From positions 2,625,520 through 2,689,519 of the forward strand of contig CAVSPN010000002.1 of the NCBI GenBank assembly GCA_963730035.1: a stretch of DNA of 64,000 bases, given 5' to 3'. This DNA is from an uncultured Actinomycetota bacterium. GTDB lineage: Bacteria > Actinomycetota > Actinomycetes > Propionibacteriales > Nocardioidaceae. Below the pieces are notes generated by a model. That model did no database searches. It worked only from the letters and a program-made list of their open reading frames with translations, and was not told the DNA's origin. This document shows positions 16,646-45,650 of the stretch, piece after piece (position 1 is the stretch's first letter; each line of letters opens with the position of its first letter). The position numbers and the translations under genes were made by a program.

Positions 16646-16933
16646 GTGGACGAGCGGTTCGTCGAGGACGTCCTCGCGCTGGTCGAATGCGTGCCTCGGG
16701 GACGCGTCACGACGTACGGCGCCATCGGCGACCGGCTGGGCCGCGGGCCGCGCCTGGTCGGCCGGGTGCTCGCCGAGTACGGCGGGCCGGTGCCGTGGTG
16801 GCGGGTCGTCAGGGCCGACGGCTCGCTGCCCCCGAGCCACGACGCGGCCGCGGTCCAGGAGTACCGCGCTGAAGGGACCCCGATGCGGGCCTCGGGCCGC
16901 GTCGACATGGTCGCGGCTTTCTGGTCACCGTGA
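16646..16933 (+). CDS. MGMT-family DNA-binding protein lacking the acceptor Cys (alkyltransferase-like, ATL)
   Basis: 95 aa with RVTTYGAIG and PVPWWRVV in place of the PCHRV motif. Confidence 0.8.
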   Translation: MDERFVEDVLALVECVPRGRVTTYGAIGDRLGRGPRLVGRVLAEYGGPVPWWRVVRADGSLPPSHDAAAVQEYRAEGTPMRASGRVDMVAAFWSP

Positions 16934-18340
16934 CGCGCGGGCTCGGGTGCGCTCCGCGAGCGCGGCGAGCGCGGCCGGGAAGACCTCGGCGGGCGGCGTG
17001 ACGAGCCCCGCGCCGACCTGACCGGTGCCGGCCACCTTCCCGGCCATGCCGGTGTTGATCTGCGGCAGGATGCCGGTCCGGCAGACGGCCGCGACGTCGA
17101 TCCCGGTCGGCGTCCCCTCGAAGTCGAGGACCGGCACCGTCCACCGCGGGTTCCGGGCGAGTGTGATCTCGTGCATCCGCCGGGTGGTGGCCAGCGCGTC
17201 GGGCACGGTCCCGCCGACGAAGCGGACGATGGCAGGGGCGGTCGCCATCGCGAAGCCGCCGAGCCCCGCGGTCTCGGTGATCGCGGAGTCCCCGATGTCG
17301 GGGTTGGCGTCCTCCGGCCCGTAGTCGCCGAGGAACAGCCCGTCGGCCAGCTGCGCGGGGCCGGTGAACCACTCGTCGTCGGTGCCGGCCACCTGGATGC
17401 CGAAGTCGGTGCCGTTGCGGGCCATCGCCACCACCACCGTCGACCCGTCGGTCCCGCGGGCCGCGTCCAGCGCAAGCTTGCAGGCGGGCATCGCGAGGTT
17501 GAGGAAGAAGTGGTCGTTGGCGCCGACGAACCGCAGCGCCTCGGCGACGTCCTCGGCCGGGGCGCCGCTGCGCACCAGGGCCGGGCCGAGGTCGCGCAGC
17601 AGCATCAGCGTCCCGGCGCGGTTGCGGTTGTGCGCCTCGTCACCCATCTGGAGCATCTGGGTGAGGATCCCGGTGACGTCCACCGGCGCGGCGCTGTCCG
17701 CCACCCGGCGCACCGCGGAGCGCAGCAGCGGGCCGAGCACCGCCGACATCCAGCGGAGCCGGTCGAGCACCTCGGGGCCGTAGGCGCCGTACCGGAGCAC
17801 CTTGCCGAGCCCCTCGTTGAGCGAGCAGGCGGTACGCCGGCCGGTGGCGGGGTCCTCGAGCACGAAGAGCCACATCGACGGGCTGACGACACCGGCCATC
17901 GGGCCGACCGCTCCTCTGCCGTGGCACGGCTCGAACGTGAACCGTCCCGAGCCGAAGTGCTCGGCCGCTGCCTCCGGGTCGTCGACGAGCCCCTCGAGCG
18001 CCGCGGCCCCCATCAGCGCGCCGCGCAGCGGCCCCGACGTGCGGTCCCAGGCGATCGGCGGGCCGGCGTGGAGGAACTGGCCGGGCTCCAGGCCCAGCAC
18101 CTCCGAGGCCGGCGCGACGTCGACCAGTGCCGCTCGGACGCCGAGGACGGCCTCGACGGCGCGGTCGTTCGCCGCCGCCCGCAGCGGGTCGCCCAGCACG
18201 GTGGCGAGGTCCGACGACGTGCCCGCCATCGGCGGACGCCACTCCACCCGCTCGACCGCGACACCCTGTCCCGCAACGGCGTCCGCCAGCAGGGCGGCAC
18301 CGGCGGTGACCACGACGTCCGGGCGGCGGGTCGGGTTCAC
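16925..18340 (-). CDS. DUF1116 protein (YlbE / oxamate carbamoyltransferase AllG-like)
   Basis: 471 aa. GTG at 18340 overlaps the fdrA stop (GTGA). The sequence resembles YlbE-type DUF1116 (..FLHAGPPI..GAVGPMAG..NEGLG..). Confidence 0.75.
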   Translation of the reverse strand: MNPTRRPDVVVTAGAALLADAVAGQGVAVERVEWRPPMAGTSSDLATVLGDPLRAAANDRAVEAVLGVRAALVDVAPASEVLGLEPGQFLHAGPPIAWDRTSGPLRGALMGAAALEGLVDDPEAAAEHFGSGRFTFEPCHGRGAVGPMAGVVSPSMWLFVLEDPATGRRTACSLNEGLGKVLRYGAYGPEVLDRLRWMSAVLGPLLRSAVRRVADSAAPVDVTGILTQMLQMGDEAHNRNRAGTLMLLRDLGPALVRSGAPAEDVAEALRFVGANDHFFLNLAMPACKLALDAARGTDGSTVVVAMARNGTDFGIQVAGTDDEWFTGPAQLADGLFLGDYGPEDANPDIGDSAITETAGLGGFAMATAPAIVRFVGGTVPDALATTRRMHEITLARNPRWTVPVLDFEGTPTGIDVAAVCRTGILPQINTGMAGKVAGTGQVGAGLVTPPAEVFPAALAALAERTRARASR

Positions 18341-19938
18341 TGCGGGACCGCCGCCTCGTCGATCCCGGCCTCCTCGACGCCGTCCTCCTCCAGGAGGACC
18401 TCCGGCGGGAGCAGCCCGACCGCCCGAGCGACGGCCTGGGCGTTCGAGAGGTACACCTCCGCGCCGGCCTCGGCCAGCCGCCGCGCCTGCACGCTCAGCC
18501 GCTGCGGGTCCCGCTCGGTCCCGACACAGGTGACCACGACCGACAACCGGCGCCCGGCACGGCCGGCCTCGGCCAGGGCCGACGCGACGGCGGGGGCGAG
18601 GGTCGAGGCGGGGTCGGGGTCGGCGCCGTGCCCCAGGACGACGTCGAGCAGGACCACCGCGGTCGTCGGGTCGGCGGCGACGTCGGCGAGGTGCTGGAGC
18701 CGCAAGGTCGGGTCGATCATCGGGTGCGCCCGGCCGCGGGTCAGCGCGTCGTCGCCGAAGTCCAGCATCACGTGGTCGCGGACGCCGGAGGCGACGACCG
18801 GGTCGACGGCGAGGTCCGGCGTCAGCGGGATGTTGCTGCGCACCGGGCCCAGCCACTCCTCGGCCACGAGCATCGCCTCGTCGCAGAGCGTGCCGCCGAC
18901 GAAGAGCCCCCGGAGCCACCGGCCGGGCGCTCCGGTGTCCTCCTGCTGGGGGTCCACCGACCCCCAGGTCGGCCAGGTCGGGACCGGCAGGCCCATCTCG
19001 AGGAGCAGCGCCTCGACGGTCGCGGTGAGGTCGGGCTGGAATCGCCCGAGCAGCGCCAGGTGGACCGGGGTGGCCAGCGACGCGGCGTGCTCCTGGAGCT
19101 GCTGCGCGACCTCCGGAGCGGGCGGCTTGGAGACCAGCACGATTCGATCGACCTCCGGGTCCTGGTCGAGGCGACGCAGCGCCTCCCGGGTCGAGCGGCC
19201 GCCGACCGCCGCGGAGAGGTCGCGCCCACCGACCCCGAGCGCCGCGCCGACGCCGACGCCGACCGCGTCGAGCAGGCAGAGGAGCTGCTGGCAGCCGGTC
19301 CCCGAGGCCGCGACGACGCCGACCCGGCCCGAGCGCGTGACGTTGGCGAAGCCGAGCCCCACACCGCCCACGACGGCGGTGCCGCAGTCCGGGCCCATCA
19401 CCAGCAACCCGCGCTCCGACGCCGCGTCCTTGAGGGCGACCTCCTGGTCCACCGGGACGTTGTCGCTGAAGATCATCACGTCGAGGCCGGCAGCGAGTGC
19501 GTCCCACGCCTCGACGGCGGCGTGCTCGCCGGGCACCGACACCAGCGCGATCCCCGAGCCCGGGGCGGCGCCGGACCGCGCCGCCGCCGACCGGAGGGTC
19601 CGCGGCGGTACGTCGGGCACCGCTCCCGCGACGCTCTCGCGAGCACCGCTCGGGCCGGCCAGGGCCAGGTCGACCGCGGCCAGCGCTCGCGGCACGGCGT
19701 CCGGGTCCTCGGACCGGATCGCGACGACGAGGTCGTCGGGGGAGCATGGCGGCACCGCGAAGCCCATGCCCGCGAGCACCTCGACGTTGAGCGGCGTCGC
19801 CATCGCGACCTGCGCGGCGAGCACCCCCGGCGTGGCGGCGACGTCGCGGCTGACCGCGAGGAGCCGCACCGAGTCGGCGTAGGCGCCGTGCCGGACCTCG
19901 ACGTGCTGCGTCACGGGCTGGGTCACGGGCTGGGTCAC
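18337..19938 (-). CDS. fdrA: FdrA family protein (acyl-CoA synthetase-like; AllF-like)
   Basis: VEVRHGAYADSVRLLAVS N-terminus and succinyl-CoA-ligase-like GPDCGTAVVGG / GNVTRSGRVGVVAASGTG motifs. Three in-frame GTGs (19938, 19926, 19914) lie in a 12-bp repeat. Confidence 0.8.
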   Translation of the reverse strand: MTQPVTQPVTQHVEVRHGAYADSVRLLAVSRDVAATPGVLAAQVAMATPLNVEVLAGMGFAVPPCSPDDLVVAIRSEDPDAVPRALAAVDLALAGPSGARESVAGAVPDVPPRTLRSAAARSGAAPGSGIALVSVPGEHAAVEAWDALAAGLDVMIFSDNVPVDQEVALKDAASERGLLVMGPDCGTAVVGGVGLGFANVTRSGRVGVVAASGTGCQQLLCLLDAVGVGVGAALGVGGRDLSAAVGGRSTREALRRLDQDPEVDRIVLVSKPPAPEVAQQLQEHAASLATPVHLALLGRFQPDLTATVEALLLEMGLPVPTWPTWGSVDPQQEDTGAPGRWLRGLFVGGTLCDEAMLVAEEWLGPVRSNIPLTPDLAVDPVVASGVRDHVMLDFGDDALTRGRAHPMIDPTLRLQHLADVAADPTTAVVLLDVVLGHGADPDPASTLAPAVASALAEAGRAGRRLSVVVTCVGTERDPQRLSVQARRLAEAGAEVYLSNAQAVARAVGLLPPEVLLEEDGVEEAGIDEAAVPQ

Positions 19939-20738
19939 GGGGTGGCCCCGACCAGCGCGGCGAGCGAGCCGAGGGCGCACACGGTCCCGAGCAGCACCCC
20001 CGCGCCGGAGGTGTCGCCGACGGCGAGGAGCAGGTCCACCGCCCGCTGGTCCGGCGTCGGGTCGTCGGTGGCGAGCCCGGCCAGCAGGGTGCGCAGCTCC
20101 GGCACGACCTCCCCCCGGGCGGCACACGCCAGCAGCGTCGCGGAGAGCGTCGTGGTTCGCTCGACGGCCGTCATCGCCACGGCCCGGCGTACCTCCTCGA
20201 GGCCGCCGTGCCGGGTGGCGACCGCGGTCGCGAGCCAGCCGCCGAGGACGTCGTCGCCGAGCGGGGTCAGCCCGGGCCCGCGACCGACGAGCGGCCGCAC
20301 CGCGGCTGCGTCACCGCGGCAGAGCGCGTCGAGCGCGTCGCTCGGCAGCAGGTCGCGGACGGTCCCGGTGGCCTCGGCCGCCAGGGGCGCCAGCCGGCGG
20401 GTCGCCCGGGCCGCGGCCGACGGCGAGAGCACCGGGACGGTGGTGTCGACGATCTCGGTGACGTGCACCTCGAGCCCCGGCAGCGTGAGGGTGCCGTTCC
20501 CGACGGTGGCCTCGGTCCCCGGGGGGACGTGGGGCAGCGTCGGGAGCGGGGTCCGGATCCCGCAGGGCACCTGCACCGCCCCGGTAGCCAGCAGGCCGGT
20601 GCAGGTCCCCTCGAGGTCGAGGTAGACCGCGTCCGGCCCGGCGTGGAGGACGGCCGCGGTCCGGGGGAGCCCGGCGACCTGGCCGAGGACCCGGACCGAC
20701 GCGGACCCGAGCACGCGCACGCCGGCGTCCGAGGTCAT
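19935..20738 (-). CDS. DUF2877 protein (YlbF / AllH-like)
   Basis: 267 aa, first gene of the fdrA operon, with its stop overlapping the fdrA GTG. The assignment rests on position and general resemblance, not a search. Confidence 0.6.
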   Translation of the reverse strand: MTSDAGVRVLGSASVRVLGQVAGLPRTAAVLHAGPDAVYLDLEGTCTGLLATGAVQVPCGIRTPLPTLPHVPPGTEATVGNGTLTLPGLEVHVTEIVDTTVPVLSPSAAARATRRLAPLAAEATGTVRDLLPSDALDALCRGDAAAVRPLVGRGPGLTPLGDDVLGGWLATAVATRHGGLEEVRRAVAMTAVERTTTLSATLLACAARGEVVPELRTLLAGLATDDPTPDQRAVDLLLAVGDTSGAGVLLGTVCALGSLAALVGATP

Positions 20739-20894
20739 GGCGCGACGCTACCCACCCAACCCTCGTCCGACGCCGGTCCGCGACGGTCCGGAAGCGCGCG
20801 CCGCGGCCCGACACGCGGACTCCGGTCGGGCAGATGCTCGCGTCCGGCGCTGCGGGGGTCGAACATGACCCCACACGAGCGACCAGGAGGACCC

Positions 20895-22319
20895 ATGTCG
20901 ATGTTCAAGTGGGATGTCGTCTACGGCGGCGGGACGCCTCCGCCGGGCGCCGCGGTCGGGCCGCGCGAGCGGCTCAGCTGGGGCCGCACCGCGGGGCTCG
21001 GCGCCCAGCACGTCGTCGCGATGTTCGGCGCGACCTTCGTGTTCCCGCTGGTGATGGGGCTGGACGCGAACCTCGCGATCATGTTCTCCGGCATCTGCAC
21101 GATCCTGTTCCTGCTGATCTGCCAGAACCGGGTCCCGAGCTACCTCGGCACCAGCGCCTCGTTCGTGGCATCCGTGGCCGCGATCCGCAGCCAGGGCGGC
21201 GACTCCGCGGACGTCACCGGCGCGATCCTGGTGGCCGGGCTGGTCCTCGCGCTCGTGGGCGTCCTGGTGCACGTCAGCGGCTCCCGGCTCATCCACCGGG
21301 TCCTGCCGCCGGCGGTGACCGGTGCGGTCGTCATGCTCATCGGCTTCAACCTCGCGCCGGTCGTCGCGGGCGTCTACTGGCCGCAGGACCAGTGGATCGC
21401 GCTGCTGACCGCGGCGTTCATGGTCGCCGCCGCGGTGCTGCTGCCCGGCTTCTTCTCGCGCATCGCGGTCTTCCTCGCGCTGATCTTCGGCTACCTCCTC
21501 AGCTGGGTGGCGGACCTGCTCTTCGGCCCGATCACCTCGGTGCTCGGCGGCGCGACGGAGGCGACCAGCCACGACCGCGTCGACTGGTCCGGGGTCTCGG
21601 GCGCCTCCTGGATCGGCTTCCCGTCCGGCGAGCTCGGCGACGGCGTCAGCGTCGTCCACGGCCCGAGCTTCTCGCTCACGTTCATCCTCCTCGTGCTGCC
21701 CGGCGTCATCGCGCTCGTCGCGGAGAACACCGGCCACGTGAAGGCGGTCGCGGAGATGACGGGGGAGGACCTCGATCCCTACATGGGCCGCGCGATCGGG
21801 GCCGACGGTCTGGCGACCGCGTTCGCCAGCGCCTTCGGCGGCTCCCCGACCACGACGTACGCCGAGAACATCGGGGTCATGGGAGCGACGCGGGTCTACT
21901 CGACCGCGGCCTACTACGTCGCCGCTGCGGTGGCGATCCTGCTCGGCCTCTGCCCGAAGTTCGGGGCCGTCGTCAACGCGACCCCCGGCGGGGTCCTCGG
22001 CGGGATCACGATCGTGCTCTACGGGATGATCGGCCTGGTGGGCGCCAAGATCTGGGTCGAGAACCGCGTCGACTTCGGCGAGCCGATCAACCTCGTCGGG
22101 CTGTCCGCCGGCCTCATCGCCGGGATCGGCGGCGTCACGCTGCGCATCACCGACGACTTCGAGCTCGGCGGCATCGCCCTCGGCACGATCCTCGTCATCG
22201 GCTTCTTCCACATGGTCAACCTCGGCCGCCGCTCGGGCGCACCCGGGGTCGCGGCCGGCGGGGACGGGCCGGAGGGCTATCGGCCGGGCCACCGGAAGGC
22301 CGGCCTGGGCGAGCGGTGA
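20895..22319 (+). CDS. NCS2 family nucleobase permease, UraA/RutG (pyrimidine) type
   Basis: AGGAGG SD then ATG at 20895. 474 aa, multi-TM. The motif AENIGVMGATRVYS matches the uracil-permease subfamily rather than xanthine permeases. Confidence 0.9.
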   Translation: MSMFKWDVVYGGGTPPPGAAVGPRERLSWGRTAGLGAQHVVAMFGATFVFPLVMGLDANLAIMFSGICTILFLLICQNRVPSYLGTSASFVASVAAIRSQGGDSADVTGAILVAGLVLALVGVLVHVSGSRLIHRVLPPAVTGAVVMLIGFNLAPVVAGVYWPQDQWIALLTAAFMVAAAVLLPGFFSRIAVFLALIFGYLLSWVADLLFGPITSVLGGATEATSHDRVDWSGVSGASWIGFPSGELGDGVSVVHGPSFSLTFILLVLPGVIALVAENTGHVKAVAEMTGEDLDPYMGRAIGADGLATAFASAFGGSPTTTYAENIGVMGATRVYSTAAYYVAAAVAILLGLCPKFGAVVNATPGGVLGGITIVLYGMIGLVGAKIWVENRVDFGEPINLVGLSAGLIAGIGGVTLRITDDFELGGIALGTILVIGFFHMVNLGRRSGAPGVAAGGDGPEGYRPGHRKAGLGER

Positions 22320-23242
22320 AGCCCGCACCCTTCGACTACGCCCGGCCGGGCTCGGTGGCCGACGCCCTCGAGCAGCTGGCCCGGCCGGGCGCGAAGGTGC
22401 TCGCCGGCGGGCAGAGCCTCGTGCCACTGCTGTCGATGCGGCTCGCCGCTCCCGAGCTGCTCGTCGACGTCAACGGGCTCGAGGAGCTCGCCTACGTCGA
22501 GGCCGACCCCGCTTTCCCGGAGCAGGGGGTGCGGGTCGGCGCCCTGGCCCGCCACTCCGACGTGCTCGCGCACCCGGGTGCCCGCACGGTGCAGCCGCTG
22601 CTCGCGCGGGCGCTCCGGCTGGTCGCGCACCCGACGATCCGCAACCGCGGCACCACCGTCGGATCGATCGTCCACGCCGACGCCGCCGCCGAGATGCCGG
22701 CCGTCCTGGCGCTGCTCGGCGGCGGGGTCACCGCCGCCTCCCGGGCCGGCAGGCGGTACGTCGACGCGGCCGACCTCTTCGCCGGGCCACTGGAGTCCTC
22801 GCTGGGCGGCGACGAGCTCGCGGTGGAGGCGGTGTTCCCCGCGCTCGCGCCGACAGCGGGTGCGGCGATCGACGAGGTGTCGCGGCGCCACGGCGACTAC
22901 GCGCTGTGCGGGGTGGCGGCGCTCGTCGAGGCCGGTCCCGGGACCGGCGCGGGAGGCGGTTCCGTCACGGGGGACGAGCGGCCGGCGTCGGTCCGCGCCG
23001 GGTACTTCTCGGTCTGCGACGTCCCGACGGTCGTCGACCTGACCCCGGCACTCGAGGGCGGCCTCACCGACGCCGCCCTCGAGGACGCCGCCGACCTGGC
23101 GCTCGCCTCGCTGGACCCCCAGGAGGACATCCACGCGACCGCGGCGTACCGCACGCAGCTGGTGCGGGTCCTCACCCGTCGGGTCGTCCTCGCCGCGCAC
23201 ACGGAGTCGTCGGAGCGCGCACGTACGCTGTCGGCCTCATGA
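22316..23242 (+). CDS. Molybdo-hydroxylase FAD-binding (medium, CoxM-like) subunit
   Basis: GTGA overlap with the permease stop. KPAPFDYARPGSVADALE...AGGQSLVPLL FAD-binding motif. Confidence 0.85.
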   Translation: MKPAPFDYARPGSVADALEQLARPGAKVLAGGQSLVPLLSMRLAAPELLVDVNGLEELAYVEADPAFPEQGVRVGALARHSDVLAHPGARTVQPLLARALRLVAHPTIRNRGTTVGSIVHADAAAEMPAVLALLGGGVTAASRAGRRYVDAADLFAGPLESSLGGDELAVEAVFPALAPTAGAAIDEVSRRHGDYALCGVAALVEAGPGTGAGGGSVTGDERPASVRAGYFSVCDVPTVVDLTPALEGGLTDAALEDAADLALASLDPQEDIHATAAYRTQLVRVLTRRVVLAAHTESSERARTLSAS

Positions 23243-23772
23243 ACCGCCACGAGGTCCGGCTGAGCGTCAACGGGGTCGCGCACGACCTGGCGGTGCCGGC
23301 CCGACGGCTGCTGAGCGACGCGCTCCGCCACGACCTGCGGCTGACCGGGACCCACGTCGGCTGCGAGCACGGCGTCTGCGGGTCCTGCACGGTGCTGCTG
23401 GACGGCCGGCCGGTGCGCTCCTGCCTGGTGCTGGCCGTGTCGGCCGCGGGGGCCGAGGTCACGACCGTCGAGGGGCTGGCGCCGGCCGACGGCTCGCTCA
23501 GCCCGGTGCAGCAGGCGTTCCGCGACTGCCACGGGCTGCAGTGCGGGTTCTGCACGCCGGGTTTCCTCACGACCGTCACCGCCGGGCTCGCGGACAACCC
23601 CACGCCGACCCGTGAGGAGGCCCGCGAGATGGTGGCCGGGAACCTGTGCCGGTGCACCGGCTACCAGGGCATCGTCGCCGCGGTGCTCCGGGCCGCCGAG
23701 CTGACCGCGCCGACCGCCGTGACCGCCGTGGAGACCGACGCCGACCTCGTCGAGGACCGGGGCGGCGCGTGA
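23239..23772 (+). CDS. Molybdo-hydroxylase [2Fe-2S] (small, CoxS-like) subunit
   Basis: ATGA overlap. CEHGVCGSCTV and CGFCTPG...CRCTGY cluster motifs. Confidence 0.9.
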   Translation: MNRHEVRLSVNGVAHDLAVPARRLLSDALRHDLRLTGTHVGCEHGVCGSCTVLLDGRPVRSCLVLAVSAAGAEVTTVEGLAPADGSLSPVQQAFRDCHGLQCGFCTPGFLTTVTAGLADNPTPTREEAREMVAGNLCRCTGYQGIVAAVLRAAELTAPTAVTAVETDADLVEDRGGA

Positions 23773-26156
23773 CGACCAAGCTCGTCGGCGAGGGCGTCCG
23801 CCGCGTCGAGGACGACCGGCTGCTCCGCGGCCAGGGGCGCTACGTCGACGACGTCCTGCCCGGGGCGCTCGAGGTCGCGGTGGTCCGCAGCCCGCACGCC
23901 CACGCCCGGGTGCTCGACATCGACGTGGACGCCGTCCTCGACGTCGAGGGTGTCGTCGCGGTCTACACCTACGACGACCTGCTCGGCCCGATGGCCGACC
24001 CGCTGCCGCTGCTGATCCCGCACCCGGCGCTGACCCACGGCCGCACCCAGCACGCGCTCGCCAAGGACGAGGTCAACTACGTCGGCGAGGCGGTGGCGAT
24101 GGTCGTCGCGGAGGACCGGTACGTCGCGGAGGACGCGGTCGCGCTGGTCCGCGTCACCTACGAGGTGCTGCCGCCGGTCGTCGGCATCGACGCCGCTCGC
24201 AGAGCCGAGCGGCTGGTGCACGAGGACGTCCCGGGCAACGTCGGCGCCCGGCTCGAGCAGTCGAACGGCGACGCGGCCGGGGCGATCGCCGCCGCGCCGC
24301 ACCGGCTCAGCCTCGACCTCACCGTCGAGCGCAGCGCGTCGACGCCGCTGGAGGGTCGCGGCACCGCCGCGCGGTGGGACCCCGACAGCGGCCGGCTGCA
24401 GGTCTGGAGCTCCACCCAGACCTCGACCGGCCTCCGCGCGGCGATCGCCACCAAGCTCGTCCTCGACCTCGTGCAGGTCGACGTCATCACTCCCGACGTC
24501 GGCGGCGGCTTCGGCGTCAAGATCGTCCACCCGTGGCCCGAGGAGCTGCTGGTCCCGATGGCCGCCCGGGCGCTGGGACGGCCCGTCCGGTTCACCGAGG
24601 ACCGACGTGAGCACTTCATCTCCTCGGCCCACGAGCGCGGCCAGGTGCAGCACGTCGAGGTCGGGTTCGACGACGACGGCCGGCTGCTGGGGCTCGACGT
24701 CCGGTTCTGGCACGACCACGGCGCCTACACGCCGTACGGCCTCATCGTCCCGATCATCACCTCCACCCAGCTGCTCGGGCCGTACAAGCCCGGCGCCTAC
24801 TCGGTGGTCTTCGAGAGCCTCTACACCAACACCGTCATCGTCACGCCGTACCGCGGTGCCGGCCGGCCCCAGGGCGTCTACGCGATGGAGCGGACGATGG
24901 ACGCGATCGCGGCACACCTCGGCAAGGACCGCGCCGACGTCCGCGCGGTCAACCTCATCCAGCCCGACGAGTTCCCCTACGACCACGGACTGGTGTTCCA
25001 GGACGGTCGGCCGCTGGTCTACGACTCCGGGGACTACCCGGCCGGGCTCGCGAAGCTCAAGGCGCTCGTGGGCTGGGACGACTTCGAGGAGTTCCGCGCC
25101 GCGGCCCGGGCCGAGGGCCGCCGGGTCGGCATCGGGATGGCGCTCTACGTCGAGGGCACCGGCGTCGGCCCCTACGAGGGCGCTCACGTGCACGTCGAGA
25201 CGTCCGGCAAGGTCAAGGTCGCCATCGGCCTGACGTCGCAGGGTCAGGGACACCGCACCGCGTTCGCACAGATCGTCGCCGACGAGCTCGGCGTGCCGTT
25301 CGAGGACGTCGAGGTGACCAGCGGGGACACCCGGCGGATGCCGTACGCCGTCGGCACGTTCGCCTCCCGCGCCGCGGTGATGAGCGGGTCGGCGGTCGCG
25401 CTGACCGCCCGGGCGGTGAGGGCCAAGGCGCTGCGGATCGCCGCGGAGGCCCTGGAGGCCGACGAGAACGACCTCGAGATCGTCGACGGCCAGGTCCGGG
25501 TGAAGGGCGCCCCGGGGGCGCAGCTCGGGCTCGGGACGGTCGCCGTCCTGTCGAACCCGCTGCGCTACGCCTTCGACGAGGCGTCGAAGGCCGCCACCCA
25601 GTTCAGCGTCGGGGACCCGGGGAAGCCGCCCGTGGCCGAGGACGACGAGCCGGGCCTCGAGGCGCGGGACTTCTACTCCCCGGAGCGCTCGACGTTCGCC
25701 AGCGGGATGCACGCGGTGGTCGTCGAGACCGACCCGGACACCGCCGAGATCCGGATCCTCAAGTACGCCGTCGTCCACGACTGCGGCACGCTCATCAACC
25801 CGATGATCGTGGAGGGACAGATCCACGGCGGTGTCGCGCAGGGCGTCGGCGGGGCGCTCTACGAGCGGATGGCCTACGACGACAGCGGGCAGCTGCTCAA
25901 CGCGTCGTTCATGGACTTCCTCATGCCCTACGTGACCGAGGTCCCCGAGCAGATCGACATCGACCACCTCGAGACGCCTTCGCCGCTGAACCCGCTGGGG
26001 ATCAAGGGCGCGGGCGAGGCGGGGGTGATCCCGTCGGCGGCGGTGTTCGCCTCGGCGATCGAGGACGCGGAGGGCATCCCGGTCCGGGCGATGCCGATCT
26101 CGCCGTCGGAGCTGTTCGAGCTCCGCCGGCTGCACGCGAGCGGAGGACGCGCATGA
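23769..26156 (+). CDS. Molybdopterin-binding (large, CoxL-like) subunit of a xanthine dehydrogenase-family hydroxylase
   Basis: GTGA overlap, 795 aa. RVEDDRLLRGQGRYVDD N-terminus. The active-site loop is TPYRGAGRPQG (general/form-II type, not the CODH form-I VAYRCSFR loop). Confidence 0.9.
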   Translation: MTTKLVGEGVRRVEDDRLLRGQGRYVDDVLPGALEVAVVRSPHAHARVLDIDVDAVLDVEGVVAVYTYDDLLGPMADPLPLLIPHPALTHGRTQHALAKDEVNYVGEAVAMVVAEDRYVAEDAVALVRVTYEVLPPVVGIDAARRAERLVHEDVPGNVGARLEQSNGDAAGAIAAAPHRLSLDLTVERSASTPLEGRGTAARWDPDSGRLQVWSSTQTSTGLRAAIATKLVLDLVQVDVITPDVGGGFGVKIVHPWPEELLVPMAARALGRPVRFTEDRREHFISSAHERGQVQHVEVGFDDDGRLLGLDVRFWHDHGAYTPYGLIVPIITSTQLLGPYKPGAYSVVFESLYTNTVIVTPYRGAGRPQGVYAMERTMDAIAAHLGKDRADVRAVNLIQPDEFPYDHGLVFQDGRPLVYDSGDYPAGLAKLKALVGWDDFEEFRAAARAEGRRVGIGMALYVEGTGVGPYEGAHVHVETSGKVKVAIGLTSQGQGHRTAFAQIVADELGVPFEDVEVTSGDTRRMPYAVGTFASRAAVMSGSAVALTARAVRAKALRIAAEALEADENDLEIVDGQVRVKGAPGAQLGLGTVAVLSNPLRYAFDEASKAATQFSVGDPGKPPVAEDDEPGLEARDFYSPERSTFASGMHAVVVETDPDTAEIRILKYAVVHDCGTLINPMIVEGQIHGGVAQGVGGALYERMAYDDSGQLLNASFMDFLMPYVTEVPEQIDIDHLETPSPLNPLGIKGAGEAGVIPSAAVFASAIEDAEGIPVRAMPISPSELFELRRLHASGGRA

Positions 26157-26791
26157 GGCTGGCAGGTGAGGCGGTGCTGCACGCGCCGGTCGAGCAGGTG
26201 TGGGACGCGCTGCTCGATCCTGCGGTCCTGGTCCGGACGATCCCCGGCTGCGAACGGCTGGAGACGACCGGGGAGAACCGCTACGACATGACGGTGACGG
26301 CGGGCGTCGCGGCCATCCGCGGGACGTACGCCGGGACCTGCGAGCTCCGGGACCTCCGGCCCCACGAGCAGCTGCTCATGGCGGTCCAGGGAGCGGGCGC
26401 CCCGGGGACGATCTCGGCGGAGGTGACCGTGCGCTTCGAGCCGCGCGAGGACGGCACGCTGATCTCCTACGACGCGGACGCGGTCGTCGGCGGCATGCTC
26501 GGCGGGGTCGGGCAGCGGATGCTCGGATCGGTCAGCAAGCGGATGGCCGGGGAGTTCTTCGGCGCCGTGGACCAGGCGCTGGCAGGGGCCGGGGACGGGG
26601 CAGGTGCTGCTGGCGAGGGCACCGCCGGCACCGGGGCCTTCGCGGCCTCCGGCGACCGCGCGATGCCCGGGGTGTACGTCGACGCGGCTCGGACCGAGTC
26701 GTCGAGCGACCTCCTCCGGGGCATCGCCATCGGCGCCGGGCTGGTGCTGCTCGGTGTGGTCGCGGGCCGGCTGGGCGGCCGACCGAGGTGA
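26153..26791 (+). CDS. CoxG-like SRPBCC protein with C-terminal membrane anchor
   Basis: ATGA overlap. The CoxG-type N-domain reads VEQVWDALLDPAVLVRTIPGCERLE. C-terminal GIAIGAGLVLLGVVAG. Confidence 0.8.
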   Translation: MRLAGEAVLHAPVEQVWDALLDPAVLVRTIPGCERLETTGENRYDMTVTAGVAAIRGTYAGTCELRDLRPHEQLLMAVQGAGAPGTISAEVTVRFEPREDGTLISYDADAVVGGMLGGVGQRMLGSVSKRMAGEFFGAVDQALAGAGDGAGAAGEGTAGTGAFAASGDRAMPGVYVDAARTESSSDLLRGIAIGAGLVLLGVVAGRLGGRPR

Positions 26792-28200
26792 CCGACCTGT
26801 CGACGTACTCCCCGGCCGTCGACCAGGTCGCCGCGGTCCGCGCGGGGGAGGTGTCCGCACGGGAGCTCCTCGACCTGCACCTCGACCGGATCGCCGCGGT
26901 CAACCCGCGGGTCAACGCCGTCGTCAGCATCGACGAGGAGCGGGCCCGCAGCGCCGCCGCGGCGGCCGACGAGCGGCAGGCCCGCGGGGAGGCGCTCGGT
27001 CCGCTGCACGGGCTGCCGTGGGCGTTCAAGGACACCCACGAGGTCGCCGGCTGGCGCACGACGTACGGGTCGCCGCTGCGCGTCGACCACGTGCCGGAGG
27101 CCGACGAGGAGGTCGTCGCCAGGATCCGCCGCGCCGGCGCGGTCGTGCTGGGGCGGACGAACGTGCCGGAGTTCGCCGCCGGCTCGCACACCTTCAACCG
27201 TGTGTTCGGGACGACCCGCAACCCCTACGACCTGACCCGGTCGGCCGGCGGGTCGAGCGGGGGAGCGGCCGCCGCCCTCGCCAGCGGGATGCTGCCGCTG
27301 GCCGACGGGTCCGACATGGGCGGGTCCCTGCGCAACCCGGCGTCGTTCTGCAACGTCGTCGGGCTCCGGCCGTCGCTGGGCCGGGTGCCGCAGTGGCCGG
27401 CGGCGAACGCCTGGGAGACCACGGGGGTGAGCGGCCCGCTCGGACGCACCGTCGAGGACGTCGCGCTGCTGCTCTCGGTGATCGCCGGACCGCACCCGCG
27501 GGTGTCCACCGCGTCGGAGACACCGGGGTCGTCCTTCGCCCCGCCGCTGCGCGGTTCGCTCGCCGGGCTGCGGGTCGCGCTGTCGGCCGACCTCGGCGGT
27601 GCGTTCGCGGTCGAGCCGGACGTCGCAGCGGTCGTGGCAGCGGCCGGGGAGGTCTTCGCCGCCGGCGGTGCCACCGTCGTCGCGGCGGCGCCCGACCTCC
27701 GCGAGGCCGAGGACACCTTCCGGACGCTGCGCGCGTGGCTGTTCTGGCACACGTACGGCGACCTGCTCGGGCAGCATCCCGACGGGTTCAAGGAGTCGCT
27801 CGCGGCCAACATCCGGGCGGGTGCGGACCTGACCGGCGCCGACGTCTGGCGGGCCTACCGGCAGCGCACGCTGCTGGAGGACCGGATGACGGGCTTCTTC
27901 GCCGACCACGACGTGCTGGTGATGCCGGTGAGCCAGGTGCCGCCGTTCCCCGCGGACCGCGAGTTCCCCGCGACGGTCGCCGGCAGGGAGCTGACGTCCT
28001 ACCTCGACTGGATGGCGTCGGCGTACCTCATCACGGTCACCGGGTGCCCGGCGATCTCGGTTCCCGGCGGCACCACTCCGGAGGGCCTCCCGGTCGGCGT
28101 GCAGCTGGTGGCAAGACCGCGTGCCGAGCGCCGGCTGCTCGAGGTGGCGTGGGCGTTCGAGCAGGCCACGCGGCACGGCGAGCGGCGGCCCGCGCTCTGA
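26788..28200 (+). CDS. Amidase-signature family amidase
   Basis: GTGA overlap. GGSSGGAAAALASG signature, plus FKDT and GSDMGGSLR motifs. Confidence 0.9.
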   Translation: MTDLSTYSPAVDQVAAVRAGEVSARELLDLHLDRIAAVNPRVNAVVSIDEERARSAAAAADERQARGEALGPLHGLPWAFKDTHEVAGWRTTYGSPLRVDHVPEADEEVVARIRRAGAVVLGRTNVPEFAAGSHTFNRVFGTTRNPYDLTRSAGGSSGGAAAALASGMLPLADGSDMGGSLRNPASFCNVVGLRPSLGRVPQWPAANAWETTGVSGPLGRTVEDVALLLSVIAGPHPRVSTASETPGSSFAPPLRGSLAGLRVALSADLGGAFAVEPDVAAVVAAAGEVFAAGGATVVAAAPDLREAEDTFRTLRAWLFWHTYGDLLGQHPDGFKESLAANIRAGADLTGADVWRAYRQRTLLEDRMTGFFADHDVLVMPVSQVPPFPADREFPATVAGRELTSYLDWMASAYLITVTGCPAISVPGGTTPEGLPVGVQLVARPRAERRLLEVAWAFEQATRHGERRPAL

Positions 28201-28909: not shown

Positions 28910-28942
28910 GGGTGCTCCCTGTCGGGTCGAGGGGCGCGAACC

Positions 28943-29008
28943 CCGGTGGGTGGACCGGTGGGTGGACCGGTGGGTGGGTCAGGCGGTGGCGGTGGCGGTG
29001 GCGGTGGC
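28943..29008. repeat. G-rich microsatellites: 12-bp x3 (CCGGTGGGTGGA) then 6-bp x4.5 (GGCGGT)
   Basis: The 12-bp units start at 28943, 28955 and 28967. The hexamer run (28982-29008) encodes the ATATATATA C-terminus of the MFS gene on the minus strand. Confidence 0.8.
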
Positions 29009-30283: not shown

Positions 30284-30475
30284 GTCCTCCCGAGCGCGCC
30301 ACGACGATTGACGCACGGATGCCGACAACCGGCACCGTGCCCCGACTGTTCCGCTTCGGGACGTTGGCCCCGTCACACCTCCAGAGGCGGGTTGTCGGGT
30401 CGCACCCACTGCTCGGCTCTCCACAGGGCGGCTCTCGACCTGGCGCCCGGCGACGCGGATCACTAGAATGCGAAC

Positions 30476-34385: not shown

Positions 34386-34466
34386 GCGGCCACCGTACGG
34401 CGGGATCGCGGGCGGCACTCTGCGCGGGAGGTGGCGGGGCCCGCAGGAGGGCGGTTGGATCAGGGG

Positions 34467-45140: not shown

Positions 45141-45650
45141 TCAACCGGTGGGGCAGGTGGCCTCACCGGGCGCGAGTCCGGGGTGGATCGGCCCGGGGCG
45201 GTCCCGCAGCGACCCGCCGCCGGTCGCCCCGCGCAGGGTTGCGACGCACTCGGCCAGGACCGAGAGCGCGATCTCCGGCGGGGTGTCGGCACCGATGTCG
45301 AGACCTGCCGGCGCGTGGAGCGCCGACAGCTCCGCCTCGGTCACGCCACGCGCCACCAGCCACTCCCGCCGCCGCGCCTGCGTCCGTCGGGACCCCATCG
45401 CCGCGACGTACGCCGGACCCGCCGCTCGGGCGGCCGCCAGCGAGGCCTCGAGGGCCGGGGCGTCGAGCGCGTCGTGGTGGCTCGTGACGACCACGGCCGA
45501 CGAGGTCGGCAGGGCCGCGGCGACCTCGTCCGTCGTACCGGCCACCACCGTGCGCCAGCCGAGCACGGACGCCATCGCCGCAAGCGCGTCGGCCACCGGG
45601 CCGTCGCCCACCACCAGGAGCTGCTGGCTCTGCTCGGGCTGCACCGTCAT
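45141..45650 (-). CDS. XdhC-family protein, Rossmann (C-terminal) domain only
   Basis: LLVVGDGPVADALAAMASVLGW...AAMGSRRT...PAGLDIGADTPPEIALSVLAE is typical of the XdhC/CoxI C-domain. Only 169 aa from the ATG at 45650. Confidence 0.7.
   Translation of the reverse strand: MTVQPEQSQQLLVVGDGPVADALAAMASVLGWRTVVAGTTDEVAAALPTSSAVVVTSHHDALDAPALEASLAAARAAGPAYVAAMGSRRTQARRREWLVARGVTEAELSALHAPAGLDIGADTPPEIALSVLAECVATLRGATGGGSLRDRPGPIHPGLAPGEATCPTG

What the first reader, a model, noticed from the sequence alone, without database searches (positions are those of the whole stretch)
16925..28200. AllFGH-like carbamoyltransferase operon divergent from a pyrimidine permease / Mo-hydroxylase / CoxG / amidase operon: candidate ATP-yielding oxidative pyrimidine pathway
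Seen in the sequence: DUF2877-fdrA-DUF1116 on the minus strand are chained by GTGA overlaps. They diverge, across 156 bp, from six plus-strand genes. These are a UraA/RutG-type NCS2 permease, FAD, 2Fe-2S and Mo subunits, CoxG and an amidase, each joined by 4-bp ATGA/GTGA overlaps. Established knowledge: in E. coli, FdrA/YlbE/YlbF constitute oxamate carbamoyltransferase (oxalurate + Pi gives oxamate + carbamoyl-P) and act with a carbamate kinase to make ATP. The oxidative pyrimidine route in Rhodococcus uses a three-subunit Mo/FAD/FeS uracil-thymine dehydrogenase and then barbiturase (AtzD family). Ureidomalonase follows. Inference: ureidomalonate is the methylene homologue of oxalurate. An AllFGH-like enzyme could therefore phosphorolyse it to malonamate + carbamoyl-P, with ATP recovered by the carbamate kinase at 47503. 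The amidase would finish malonamate, and the ring-opening enzyme is at 48476. To my knowledge no such combination has been described. No dedicated regulator gene is present in the divergon.
Basis: partly seen in the sequence, partly recalled or inferred. Interest (0 to 1): 0.75.

Follow-up and report, generated by a model that had tools for sequence, protein, structure and literature searches.

The report
ATP-yielding oxidative uracil breakdown cluster
This soil-type actinobacterium carries a widely conserved gene set that probably oxidises uracil to barbiturate, opens the ring, and splits the ureido group off as carbamoyl phosphate to make ATP instead of releasing urea; I found no paper describing this route and nobody has tested it.

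Summary
Three minus-strand genes (AllH/AllF/AllG homologues) diverge across 156 bp from six plus-strand genes: an NCS2 permease, FAD, 2Fe-2S and Mo subunits, CoxG and an amidase. Every junction is a 4-bp overlap. The gene at 48476 encodes a barbiturase orthologue, about 83% identical to the solved barbiturase, not a cyanuric acid hydrolase. The gene at 47503 encodes a carbamate kinase.

Comparative genomics ties the parts together.
- Carbamate kinase lies directly upstream of barbiturase in 74 of 80 related genomes.
- AllHFG faces the permease/Mo-enzyme operon in 29 of 32 informative metagenome contigs.
- Several contigs carry everything in one block.
- Rhodococcus, where I recall the classical urea-releasing pathway was worked out, has the same Mo enzyme, barbiturase and an adjacent amidase. 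It has no carbamate kinase or AllFGH within 10 kb.

The best reading is a variant oxidative pyrimidine pathway. An AllFGH-type carbamoyltransferase phosphorolyses ureidomalonate, carbamate kinase recovers ATP, and the amidase hydrolyses malonamate. All the chemistry is inferred.

Two points remain open: whether the amidase is a malonamidase or a ureidomalonase, and what the conserved ATP-dependent HyuA/HyuB pair (34455-38467) does. My literature searches found no description of this pathway.

The parts
16925..18340 (-). AllG-like subunit (DUF1116) of an AllFGH-type carbamoyltransferase
   Evidence: Pfam PF06545 AllG, 302 bits. 46% identical to E. coli YlbE/AllG. 70-92% identical homologues sit in the same context in Nocardioides, Pseudonocardia and soil metagenomes.
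18337..19938 (-). AllF/FdrA-like subunit (succinyl-CoA-synthetase-alpha-like)
   Evidence: Pfam Ligase_CoA. NCBIfam FdrA scores 388 bits, below the cut-off of 433. 227 bits to PDB 3DMY FdrA, with a conserved GRxHPMIDP stretch. 37% identical to E. coli AllF. The GTGA overlap with AllH lies in a 12-nt tandem repeat that gives three candidate GTG starts.
19935..20738 (-). AllH-like subunit (DUF2877)
   Evidence: Pfam PF11392 AllH, 82 bits. 33% identical to E. coli YlbF/AllH over 153 residues.
20739..20894 (.). 156-bp divergent control region without a regulator gene
   Evidence: Sequence read directly. AGGAGG lies 6 nt before the permease ATG. No sigma-70 consensus match and no convincing operator were found. 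19 of 29 related metagenome contigs insert a PucR-family regulator gene here and 10 do not.
20895..22319 (+). NCS2 nucleobase permease, pyrimidine (RutG/UraA) type
   Evidence: Pfam Xan_ur_permease. NCBIfam RutG 355 bits and UraA 257 bits, against PbuX 152 bits; all are below the equivalog cut-offs. 63% identical to two permeases in the Rhodococcus barbiturase cluster.
22316..23242 (+). FAD subunit of the Mo hydroxylase
   Evidence: Pfam FAD_binding_5 and CO_deh_flav_C. 52% identical to the Rhodococcus cluster subunit.
23239..23772 (+). 2x[2Fe-2S] subunit of the Mo hydroxylase
   Evidence: Pfam Fer2 and Fer2_2. 69% identical to the Rhodococcus cluster subunit.
23769..26156 (+). Molybdopterin subunit; candidate uracil/thymine dehydrogenase large subunit
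   Evidence: Pfam Ald_Xan_dh_C, MoCoBD_1 and MoCoBD_2. The closest solved structure is quinoline 2-oxidoreductase, 457 bits. The active-site loop reads PYRGAGR, without the Cys I recall in the CO dehydrogenase motif. 64% identical to the Mo subunit in the Rhodococcus qingshengii barbiturase cluster. It lies next to carbamate kinase and barbiturase in L169 and L170.
26153..26791 (+). CoxG-like SRPBCC protein with a hydrophobic C-terminal tail
   Evidence: Pfam COXG. The C-terminal sequence LLRGIAIGAGLVLLGVVAGRLGG is hydrophobic. It always follows the Mo subunit in relatives.
26788..28200 (+). Amidase-signature amidase; proposed malonamidase, alternatively ureidomalonase
   Evidence: Pfam Amidase, 368 bits. 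NCBIfam NF005686 scores 465.6 bits against a cut-off of 465. The catalytic motifs FKD, GGSSGG and GSDMGGSLR are present. 59-75% identical orthologues sit after CoxG, after AllG or after barbiturase in relatives. Only 42% identical to the Rhodococcus barbiturase-adjacent amidase, which hits the same subfamily at 715 bits.
34455..36551 (+). HyuA-like subunit of an ATP-dependent cyclic-amide hydrolase; role unknown
   Evidence: Pfam Hydant_A_N, Hydantoinase_A and Hydant_A_C. The nearest NCBIfam model is caprolactamase alpha, 513 bits, below the cut-off of 1000. HyuA occurs in 43 of 80 barbiturase loci. It is contiguous with amidase and carbamate kinase-barbiturase in L170 and follows CoxG in Rhodococcus.
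36548..38467 (+). HyuB-like subunit; GTGA overlap with HyuA
   Evidence: Pfam Hydantoinase_B, 452 bits. Present in 51 of 80 barbiturase loci. Junction shown.
45141..45650 (-). XdhC-family Mo-cofactor insertion factor, C-terminal domain only
   Evidence: Pfam XdhC_C only, 169 aa. Relatives have 371-388 aa with both XdhC_CoxI and XdhC_C next to the cluster.
47503..48444 (+). Carbamate kinase
   Evidence: NCBIfam NF009007 scores 293.5 bits, above the cut-off of 266; arcC scores 317 bits, below the cut-off of 358. 40% identical to E. coli AllK. It lies directly upstream of barbiturase in 74 of 80 genomes. A -10-like TAGAGT lies about 12 nt before the ATG, and a similar element is conserved in relatives.
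48476..49576 (+). Barbiturase (AtzD/Toblerone-fold ring-opening amidohydrolase)
   Evidence: 664 bits and about 83% identity to PDB 5HWE 'Barbiturase', versus 324 bits or less for cyanuric acid hydrolases. It has SNG where the hydrolases have SRG, as the solved barbiturase does. 82% identical to the Rhodococcus qingshengii protein.

Best explanation
The genes form one dispersed pathway for oxidative catabolism of uracil, and probably thymine. In this genome the pathway is split by insertions. In relatives it is contiguous.

Proposed steps:
1. The NCS2 permease imports the base.
2. The three-subunit Mo/FAD/FeS hydroxylase oxidises C6 to give barbiturate. CoxG tethers the enzyme to the membrane, and an XdhC-type factor matures it.
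3. Barbiturase (48476) opens the ring to ureidomalonate (3-oxo-3-ureidopropanoate).
4. The AllF/AllG/AllH-like complex transfers the carbamoyl group of this N-acylurea to phosphate. The products are carbamoyl phosphate and malonamate. This parallels oxalurate + Pi giving oxamate + carbamoyl-P in E. coli.
5. The carbamate kinase next to barbiturase converts carbamoyl-P + ADP to ATP + NH3 + CO2.
6. The amidase hydrolyses malonamate to malonate + NH3.
7. In relatives, a family-III CoA transferase and a carboxyltransferase would take malonate to acetyl-CoA. These two genes are not in this window.

Compared with the hydrolytic route I recall from Rhodococcus work (ureidomalonase giving urea + malonate), this variant gains one ATP and both nitrogens without urease.

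What is shown: the gene identities, the orthology of barbiturase and the Mo subunits, and the conserved linkage. What is inferred: every substrate assignment. This applies above all to the carbamoyltransferase and the amidase.
For: Gene identities.

Barbiturase rather than cyanuric acid hydrolase.

Carbamate kinase and barbiturase adjacency:
- 74 of 80 genome loci across Nocardioidaceae, Intrasporangiaceae, Pseudonocardia, Cryptosporangium, Jatrophihabitans and Streptosporangiaceae MAGs.
- Four of the six exceptions have less than 500 bp of upstream sequence.
- The pairing also holds for barbiturases closest to the Rhodococcus enzyme.

AllHFG divergent from [PucR]-permease-FAD-FeS-Mo-CoxG-amidase:
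- 29 of 32 informative metagenome contigs.
- Four genomes.

Single-block clusters:
- L158-L160: Mo-FeS-FAD-permease-PucR | AllHFG-CMD-amidase-upp | barbiturase-carbamate kinase-carboxyltransferase-CoA transferase-HyuB.
- L127.
- L115: an AtzD-like gene, permease, Mo, FeS and FAD facing AllHFG, followed by adenosine deaminase and pyrimidine nucleoside phosphorylase.
- L170: Mo-CoxG-amidase-HyuA-HyuB-NmrA-carbamate kinase-barbiturase.
- L169 (Blastococcus): carbamate kinase-barbiturase-permease-FAD-FeS-Mo-CoxG.

Where coordinates are available the two genes lie 23-30 kb apart, compared with 31 kb in the window.

Contrast case: Rhodococcus qingshengii has orthologous permease, FAD, FeS, Mo, CoxG and HyuA genes (45-69% identity) and barbiturase (82%). 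An amidase overlaps the barbiturase stop. There is no carbamate kinase or AllFGH within 10 kb.

Precedent: E. coli AllFGH phosphorolyses an N-acylurea and is co-transcribed with a catabolic carbamate kinase (PMC11326118).

Malonate-handling genes lie beside barbiturase in relatives: CoA transferase III in 45 of 80 loci and carboxyltransferase in 10 of 80.
Against: No enzyme here has been assayed. The window's AllF, AllG and AllH are only 37%, 46% and 33% identical to the E. coli proteins, and nothing in the sequence reveals the substrate.

The amidase belongs to the same NCBIfam subfamily (NF005686) as the Rhodococcus barbiturase-adjacent amidase, the likely ureidomalonase. A purely hydrolytic route could therefore coexist or dominate.

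In this window carbamate kinase and barbiturase lie 19 kb from the amidase and 27-31 kb from AllHFG. I found no shared operator motif.

The conserved ATP-consuming HyuA/HyuB pair has no place in the scheme. If it acted in the same route, it would cancel the ATP gain.

The window has no CoA transferase or carboxyltransferase for malonate.

The XdhC gene is truncated and nearby genes are decayed, so the pathway may not be fully functional in this strain.
Confidence: 0.6

Rival explanations
1. Classical hydrolytic oxidative pyrimidine pathway. The amidase is ureidomalonase and gives urea + malonate. The AllFGH-like enzyme and carbamate kinase serve a different ureide, for example oxalurate from purine/allantoin catabolism encoded elsewhere, and are only neighbours.
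For: The window amidase and the Rhodococcus barbiturase-adjacent amidase have the same best NCBIfam subfamily, NF005686. The only characterised AllFGH acts on oxalurate (PMC11326118). In the window the modules are 19-31 kb apart.
Against: Carbamate kinase is glued to barbiturase in 74 of 80 genomes. A urea-releasing route has no use for it.

AllHFG faces the uracil-type permease/Mo operon in 29 of 32 contigs and is merged with barbiturase, carbamate kinase and upp in L158-L160, L127 and L115.

No allantoin or ureidoglycolate gene appears in any neighbourhood examined.

The one locus with a barbiturase-coupled amidase (Rhodococcus) lacks both carbamate kinase and AllFGH within 10 kb. The window amidase is only 42% identical to that amidase, while barbiturase is 82% and the Mo subunit 64% identical.
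Confidence: 0.15
2. The pathway assignment is right, but the AllFGH-like enzyme takes a different ureide made within it. Candidates are the ring-opened product of the HyuA/HyuB ATP-dependent hydrolase, or only the thymine-derived methyl-ureidomalonate. Ureidomalonate itself would go through the amidase.
For: HyuA/HyuB travel with the cluster in both the Nocardioides and Rhodococcus variants and have no assigned substrate. The amidase subfamily is shared with Rhodococcus.
Against: HyuA/HyuB are also present in Rhodococcus without AllFGH or carbamate kinase, so their product does not need AllFGH. Carbamate kinase pairs with barbiturase, not with HyuB. It sits directly upstream of barbiturase whether or not HyuAB is adjacent.
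Confidence: 0.12
3. The Mo enzyme is an aerobic carbon monoxide dehydrogenase (coxMSL plus coxG), as NCBIfam NF040766 names it. On this reading the operon is not pyrimidine-related.
For: NF040766 'CODH_aero_grp5' scores 1512 bits, above its cut-off of 950. The M-S-L gene order with CoxG resembles cox operons.
Against: The active-site loop is PYRGAGR, without the Cys of the AYxCSFR motif that, as I recall, binds copper in true CO dehydrogenases. The closest solved structure is quinoline 2-oxidoreductase, a heterocycle hydroxylase. The operon starts with a nucleobase permease and ends with an amidase. The orthologue in Rhodococcus sits in the barbiturase cluster and hits the same NCBIfam model.
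Confidence: 0.02
4. An s-triazine/cyanuric acid degradation system: AtzD-type ring opening, with the amidase acting like AtzE.
For: NCBIfam NF052395 'cyanuric acid amidohydrolase' scores 481 bits, above its cut-off of 360. Many database homologues are labelled cyanuric acid amidohydrolase. The amidase has a weaker hit to AtzE.
Against: The score against the solved barbiturase is twice that against any cyanuric acid hydrolase, and the Arg of the SRG motif is Asn, as in barbiturase. Published work states that barbiturase does not act on cyanuric acid (PMC4051656). The context is a Mo hydroxylase, a pyrimidine-type permease and upp, with no biuret or allophanate hydrolase.
Confidence: 0.02

Closest known systems
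E. coli oxamic transcarbamylase AllF-AllG-AllH with catabolic carbamate kinase AllK (allFGHK operon; PMC11326118, PMC9843812)
   Same: The same three protein families are encoded side by side. A carbamate kinase belongs to the system. The proposed reaction type is the same: phosphorolysis of an N-acylurea bearing a carboxylate, giving carbamoyl-P and ATP.
   Different: Identity is only 33-46%. The gene order is H-F-G instead of F-G-H-K. The carbamate kinase is not in the operon but is paired with barbiturase. The context is uracil/barbiturate genes instead of allDCE allantoin genes. The proposed substrate is ureidomalonate, one CH2 longer than oxalurate. The amide product is probably hydrolysed further. 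As I recall, E. coli does not degrade oxamate further.
Oxidative pyrimidine pathway of Rhodococcus erythropolis (uracil/thymine dehydrogenase, barbiturase, ureidomalonase; Soong et al. 2001/2002, as cited in PMC3758960)
   Same: The barbiturase is orthologous: 82-83% identity. The three-subunit Mo enzyme, CoxG, permease and HyuA are also orthologous, at 45-69% identity to the R. qingshengii cluster. Relatives share PucR-type regulators and malonate CoA-transferase/carboxyltransferase genes.
   Different: Rhodococcus couples barbiturase to an amidase and has no carbamate kinase or AllFGH within 10 kb. Its published end products are urea + malonate (PMC3758960). Here carbamate kinase takes the position next to barbiturase, AllHFG is added, and the amidase is a divergent member of the same subfamily.
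Arginine deiminase, agmatine and allantoin fermentation routes that make ATP from carbamoyl phosphate via carbamate kinase (general knowledge)
   Same: The logic is the same: a catabolic carbamoyltransferase followed by carbamate kinase gives substrate-level ATP and releases NH3 + CO2 without urease.
   Different: Those routes use OTC/ATC-fold transcarbamylases on N-carbamoyl amines. Here the transferase is the unrelated AllFGH type, and the substrate would come from a pyrimidine ring.
Quinoline 2-oxidoreductase, 6-hydroxypseudooxynicotine dehydrogenase and 'form II CoxL' molybdenum hydroxylases
   Same: These are the best structural relatives of the Mo subunit, at 457 and 438 bits. They share the three-subunit Mo/FAD/2x[2Fe-2S] architecture and hydroxylate N-heterocycles.
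   Different: The substrate proposed here is uracil/thymine. NCBIfam labels the clade as CO dehydrogenase. A membrane-tethering CoxG is part of the operon.

Membership tests
AllFGH oxamate carbamoyltransferase (OXTCase) | Three subunits of the FdrA (SCS-alpha-like), DUF1116 and DUF2877 families encoded together | tested here: met
   PF00549 with an FdrA hit, PF06545 and PF11392 in three overlapping genes.
AllFGH oxamate carbamoyltransferase (OXTCase) | Close sequence relationship to the characterised E. coli proteins, passing the NCBIfam FdrA cut-off | tested here: not met
   37%, 46% and 33% identity. NF004760 scores 387.7 bits, below the cut-off of 433. The proteins are homologous, but equivalence is not shown.
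AllFGH oxamate carbamoyltransferase (OXTCase) | Operon with the catabolic carbamate kinase and adjacency to allantoin genes (allDCE) | tested here: not met
   E. coli layout. In the window the carbamate kinase is 27 kb away next to barbiturase, and no allantoin genes occur in any related locus.
AllFGH oxamate carbamoyltransferase (OXTCase) | Catalyses oxalurate + Pi <-> oxamate + carbamoyl-P | not testable with these tools
   Needs an enzyme assay.
Barbiturase (EC 3.5.2.1), AtzD/Toblerone-fold family | Full-length AtzD-family domain and closer to the solved barbiturase than to cyanuric acid hydrolases | tested here: met
   PF09663, 484 bits. 664 bits to 5HWE versus 324 bits or less to 5T13, 6BUM, 4BVQ and 4NQ3.
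Barbiturase (EC 3.5.2.1), AtzD/Toblerone-fold family | Loss of the second active-site Arg that cyanuric acid hydrolases keep. PMC4051656 reports a non-Arg residue in the barbiturase subgroup. | tested here: met
   The window and 5HWE read SNG where 5T13 and 6BUM read SRG. The paper names Gln at this site, so the exact residue differs from the paper's statement. The window residue is identical to that of the solved barbiturase.
Oxidative pyrimidine pathway (Rhodococcus type) | Three-subunit Mo/FAD/FeS uracil-thymine dehydrogenase | tested here: inconclusive
   The subunits are orthologous (52-69% identity) to those in the R. qingshengii barbiturase cluster. I found no published gene assignment for the purified enzyme, so the identification rests on context.
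Oxidative pyrimidine pathway (Rhodococcus type) | Ureidomalonase giving urea + malonate | tested here: inconclusive
   The amidase shares subfamily NF005686 with the Rhodococcus barbiturase-adjacent amidase, at 466 versus 715 bits. It is only 42% identical and is uncoupled from barbiturase.
Carbamate kinase | Passes a curated carbamate kinase model | tested here: met
   NF009007 scores 293.5 bits, above the cut-off of 266. The arcC equivalog scores 317 bits, below its cut-off of 358.
Aerobic (form I) CO dehydrogenase | Active-site loop AYxCSFR with the Cu-binding Cys (motif recalled from the literature) | tested here: not met
   The loop reads PYRGAGR, although the NCBIfam model NF040766 is passed.

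The most novel reading that the evidence does not exclude
An AllFGH-type enzyme is a ureidomalonate (malonylurea) carbamoyltransferase. With the carbamate kinase fused in gene order to barbiturase, it makes oxidative uracil/thymine degradation yield ATP and both nitrogens without urea or urease. Among the barbiturase loci sampled here, all actinobacterial genomes or soil and other metagenome contigs, this carbamate-kinase-linked architecture is the common form. The urea-releasing Rhodococcus route was the single exception. The cluster would also supply the missing genes for uracil/thymine dehydrogenase, and it contains a further, unassigned ATP-dependent HyuAB step.
Probability: 0.55. Interest if true: 0.75.

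Novelty: new variant of a known kind. Interest (0 to 1): 0.68.

Why it matters
The oxidative pyrimidine pathway has been known biochemically since the 1950s (PMC3758960). I found no paper that assigns genes to its dehydrogenase or to the ureidomalonate-cleaving step, or that mentions carbamoyl phosphate in this pathway.

The AllFGH carbamoyltransferase was identified only in 2024, and only for oxalurate. Its AllG component has 649 homologues at E <= 1e-30 in the library of 50%-identity cluster representatives. Those clusters have no assigned substrate.

If the proposal holds, four things follow.
- AllFGH enzymes would be a general class of N-acylurea phosphorylases.
- A pyrimidine would be shown to support substrate-level phosphorylation.
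- It would explain why carbamate kinase accompanies barbiturase in nearly all sampled genomes.
- Current annotations of these genes as 'CO dehydrogenase', 'cyanuric acid amidohydrolase' and 'acyl-CoA synthetase FdrA' would need correcting.

It is directly testable with four purified proteins and commercially available barbiturate.

Tried and rejected
- Exact-sequence look-ups of the window's own AllG product, as a window translation and as P0001, found no contig record. The source genome's annotation could not be read.
- An Rfam scan of the whole window found nothing. The weakly coding 38.5-45.1 kb stretch is therefore not an rRNA operon. It turned out to be a frameshifted ABC transporter operon.
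- I looked for a regulatory motif shared by the permease/AllH, HyuA and carbamate kinase upstream regions, using 10-mers with one mismatch over 29-77 orthologous regions. Only start-codon and RBS signals and a -10-like element before the carbamate kinase came out, with no common operator. Scans of the 156-bp gap gave only weak GC-rich repeats and no sigma-70 consensus.
- The window has no homologue of the CoA transferase, carboxyltransferase, NmrA-like protein or PucR regulator seen in relatives.
- Solved structures did not resolve the amidase's specificity. GatA, AtzE and urethanases score 170-220 bits and malonamidase E2 only 96 bits.
- Literature searches on barbiturase, ureidomalonase, uracil dehydrogenase, malonamate, DUF1116, DUF2877 and AllFGH found no description of this pathway. 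Seffernick et al. 2012 (PMC3415516) is not held.
- The apparent carbamate kinase-barbiturase fusion P0327 starts mid-kinase. It is probably a read-through or a gene-calling artefact, so I did not use it as evidence.
- The CO dehydrogenase and cyanuric acid readings were considered and rejected (see the rival explanations).

Full report
**Observation.** The window has 72-77% G+C, so raw ORF lists are uninformative.
- Minus strand: AllH-like 19935-20738, AllF/FdrA-like 18337-19938, AllG-like 16925-18340.
- A 156-bp gap.
- Plus strand: permease 20895-22319, FAD subunit 22316-23242, 2Fe-2S subunit 23239-23772, Mo subunit 23769-26156, CoxG 26153-26791, amidase 26788-28200.

All seven junctions are GTGA or ATGA overlaps. 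Pfam and NCBIfam confirm every family.

**Setting.** The flanking genes are a DEAD-box helicase, DUF3107, a TetR regulator and MoeZ on one side. On the other side are AdnA/AdnB-like helicase-nucleases, NudC and a UvrD-like helicase. I recognise this as a conserved actinobacterial backbone. The closest homologues are from Nocardioides and related genera, so the organism is probably a member of the Nocardioidaceae or a close relative. That placement is an inference.

**The ring-opening enzyme.** The 48476 product scores 664 bits, with about 83% identity, against PDB 5HWE 'Barbiturase'. It scores 324 bits or less against any solved cyanuric acid hydrolase. Where those hydrolases read SRG, both the window protein and the solved barbiturase read SNG. 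Published work says the barbiturase subgroup has lost this Arg and that barbiturase does not act on cyanuric acid (PMC4051656). The enzyme is therefore a barbiturase. The NCBIfam label 'cyanuric acid amidohydrolase' and many database names are misleading.

**The Mo enzyme.** NCBIfam places the large subunit in 'CODH_aero_grp5' at 1512 bits. Its active-site loop reads PYRGAGR, without the Cys of the CO dehydrogenase motif as I recall it. Its nearest solved relatives are quinoline 2-oxidoreductase and 6-hydroxypseudooxynicotine dehydrogenase, both heterocycle hydroxylases. The CoxG-like protein ends in a hydrophobic tail, which fits membrane tethering.

**Linkage seen from the barbiturase side.** A scan of one genome per species returned 80 close barbiturase loci with 10-kb flanks.
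- A carbamate kinase lies immediately upstream of barbiturase, on the same strand, in 74 of them. Four of the six exceptions have less than 500 bp of upstream sequence.
- The Mo subunit, CoxG and amidase lie 5-8 kb upstream, on the same strand, in 12-15 loci.
- Clustering all flanking genes and annotating the recurrent families gave: HyuB in 51 loci, a family-III CoA transferase in 45, HyuA in 43, an NmrA-like protein in 31, a carboxyltransferase in 10 and a CDA-fold deaminase in 10.
- The commonest order is Mo-CoxG-amidase-HyuA-HyuB-NmrA-carbamate kinase-barbiturase. It is uninterrupted in the metagenome contig L170, where XdhC, CoxE, CoxD-like and MocA-like maturation genes follow.
- Blastococcus (L169) has HyuA-HyuB-NmrA, two ABC transporter genes, then carbamate kinase-barbiturase-permease-FAD-FeS-Mo-CoxG.

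**Linkage seen from the AllG side.** The window's AllG has 70-92% identical homologues in many soil metagenomes and genomes.
- In Nocardioides panaciterrulae, Pseudonocardia nantongensis and two further Nocardioides genomes, AllH-AllF-AllG is divergent from PucR-permease-FAD-FeS-Mo-CoxG-amidase.
- Of 80 metagenome loci, 32 show at least 1.5 kb beyond AllH, and 29 of these show the same linkage.
- Among metagenome loci where the permease is visible, 19 of 29 have the PucR gene and 10 of 29 lack it, as the window does.
- Three arrangements merge everything. L158-L160 read Mo-FeS-FAD-permease-PucR | AllH-AllF-AllG-CMD-amidase-upp | barbiturase-carbamate kinase-carboxyltransferase-CoA transferase-HyuB. 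L127 is similar. L115 has an AtzD-like gene (72% identity), a permease, Mo, FeS and FAD facing AllHFG, followed by adenosine deaminase and pyrimidine nucleoside phosphorylase.
In two of them the genes are 23 and 30 kb apart. In the window they are 31 kb apart.

**The contrast case.** I queried with the sequence of the solved barbiturase to reach Rhodococcus. As I recall it, Rhodococcus is the genus in which ureidomalonase and the end products urea + malonate were established; the pathway itself is summarised in PMC3758960. The R. qingshengii locus reads:

XdhC, PucR, permease, <carboxyltransferase, <CoA transferase, <PucR, <upp, barbiturase, amidase (overlapping the barbiturase stop), aminotransferase, permease, FAD, FeS, Mo, CoxG-like, HyuA.

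No carbamate kinase and no AllFGH lie within 10 kb. Identities to the window proteins are: barbiturase 82%, FeS 69%, HyuA 69%, Mo 64%, permease 63%, FAD 52%, CoxG 45%, amidase 42%. Both amidases hit NCBIfam NF005686 best, at 715 bits for Rhodococcus and 466 bits for the window. Two further barbiturases close to the Rhodococcus enzyme are again preceded by carbamate kinase. The kinase-linked form therefore appears to be the usual one.

**Interpretation.** E. coli AllF-AllG-AllH converts oxalurate + Pi to oxamate + carbamoyl-P and is co-transcribed with the catabolic carbamate kinase AllK (PMC11326118). The window proteins are homologous but distant, at 37%, 46% and 33% identity, and the kinase is 40% identical to AllK.

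In the barbiturate route the only known open-chain ureide is ureidomalonate. It is an N-acylurea that differs from oxalurate by one methylene. Three observations point the same way:
- The kinase that consumes carbamoyl-P is locked to the enzyme that makes ureidomalonate.
- The only known carbamoyl-P-forming enzyme type in these clusters is locked to the uracil permease/hydroxylase operon.
- The one locus examined that lacks both couples an amidase to barbiturase instead.

The simplest model is phosphorolysis of ureidomalonate to malonamate + carbamoyl-P, ATP recovery by the kinase, and hydrolysis of malonamate by the amidase. Ureidomalonase and a malonamidase cleave the same malonyl-amide bond with different leaving groups. 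This would explain a divergent amidase of the same subfamily. That argument is inference.

I put this model at about 0.6. The main alternatives are that the amidase is still a ureidomalonase and AllFGH serves another ureide (0.15), or that AllFGH takes a different intermediate of the same pathway (0.12).

**Open points.**
- HyuA/HyuB (34455-36551 and 36548-38467) belong to the ATP-dependent hydantoinase/oxoprolinase/caprolactamase family. They accompany the Mo enzyme in both cluster variants, but the classical pathway has no ATP-dependent step.
- In this strain the pathway is broken up. A 6-kb block (NAD-binding protein, MFS transporter, DUF222, beta-propeller protein, NUDIX) separates the amidase from HyuA.
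- A frameshifted ABC transporter operon, a truncated XdhC gene and a mycothiol-dependent formaldehyde dehydrogenase/MBL-fold hydrolase gene pair separate HyuB from the carbamate kinase.
- The malonate CoA-transferase and carboxyltransferase genes are absent from the window.

**Novelty.** Full-text searches found no paper that links ureidomalonate or barbiturase to carbamoyl phosphate, AllFGH or carbamate kinase, and none that assigns genes to uracil/thymine dehydrogenase. One 2025 study notes allFGHK next to biuret and triuret genes in nitrifiers (PMC12625717). That also hints that the family handles several acylureas. AllG homologues number 649 at E <= 1e-30 in the library of 50%-identity cluster representatives, and many are AllF-AllG fusions. 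I classify the finding as a new variant of a known kind. It is well supported by gene context and untested biochemically.

Noticed in passing
window 34455-38467 (+): The HyuA/HyuB pair (ATP-dependent hydantoinase/oxoprolinase family; nearest model is caprolactamase, below cut-off) is conserved next to the Mo enzyme and barbiturase in both the Nocardioides-type and Rhodococcus-type clusters. The known oxidative pyrimidine pathway has no ATP-dependent step, so its substrate is unknown.
   Followed up: partly
window 38900-45000 (-): About 6 kb has a weak codon-position signal. It is the remains of an opp/dpp-type ABC transporter operon (solute-binding protein, two permeases, two ATPases) broken by many frame changes. 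This is either a decayed operon or a locally poor assembly.
   Followed up: yes
window 54092-57440 (+): The AdnB-like helicase-nuclease is split into two ORFs by a frameshift near 55051-55077. Relatives encode a single protein of about 1060 aa.
   Followed up: partly
window 45141-45650 (-): The XdhC-family Mo-cofactor chaperone has only the C-terminal Rossmann domain (169 aa). Relatives have 371-388 aa with both domains and, in L170, CoxE, CoxD-like and MocA-like genes beside it.
   Followed up: partly
window 28265-34000: A block of apparently unrelated genes (NAD-binding protein, MFS transporter, DUF222 protein, DUF5122 beta-propeller, NUDIX) sits where relatives run straight from the amidase to HyuA. 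A DUF222+HNH gene also sits beside the cluster in L119 (4344-5597). This suggests recurrent insertion at this site.
   Followed up: partly
window 23769-26156; L166 17345-19867: NCBIfam exception model NF040766 names this Mo-subunit clade 'aerobic carbon-monoxide dehydrogenase large subunit' (1512 and 1401 bits). The window's loop reads PYRGAGR, without the Cys I recall in the CO dehydrogenase motif, and the clade sits in barbiturase clusters. This is probably a systematic misannotation.
   Followed up: partly
window 19905-19938 (-): A 12-nt tandem repeat (GTGACCCAGCCC, about 2.7 copies) lies at the AllH stop/AllF start. It gives three in-frame GTG start candidates and a TQPV-TQPV-TQHV N-terminus.
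   Followed up: no
window 45751-47468 (+): An S-(hydroxymethyl)mycothiol dehydrogenase gene (683 bits, above cut-off) is joined by a GTGA overlap to an MBL-fold hydrolase gene. The pair is inserted between XdhC and the carbamate kinase. The same pair lies about 4 kb upstream of carbamate kinase-barbiturase in L022.
   Followed up: no
window 47469-47502; upstream of carbamate kinase in L005-L084: A conserved -10-like element (CCCTAGGTTCGA; CCCTTAGAGTCG in the window) lies about 12 nt before the carbamate kinase ATG in roughly half of 77 loci. This suggests a dedicated promoter and a very short leader for the carbamate kinase-barbiturase unit.
   Followed up: partly
protein P0327 (metagenome, 490 aa): This product joins the C-terminal third of a carbamate kinase to a full barbiturase. 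It is probably a stop-codon read-through or a miscalled gene, not a true fusion.
   Followed up: partly
L166 12754-13977 (Rhodococcus qingshengii): A class-III (omega) aminotransferase sits between the barbiturase-coupled amidase and the permease in the Rhodococcus cluster. It has no counterpart in the window and no role in the known pathway.
   Followed up: no
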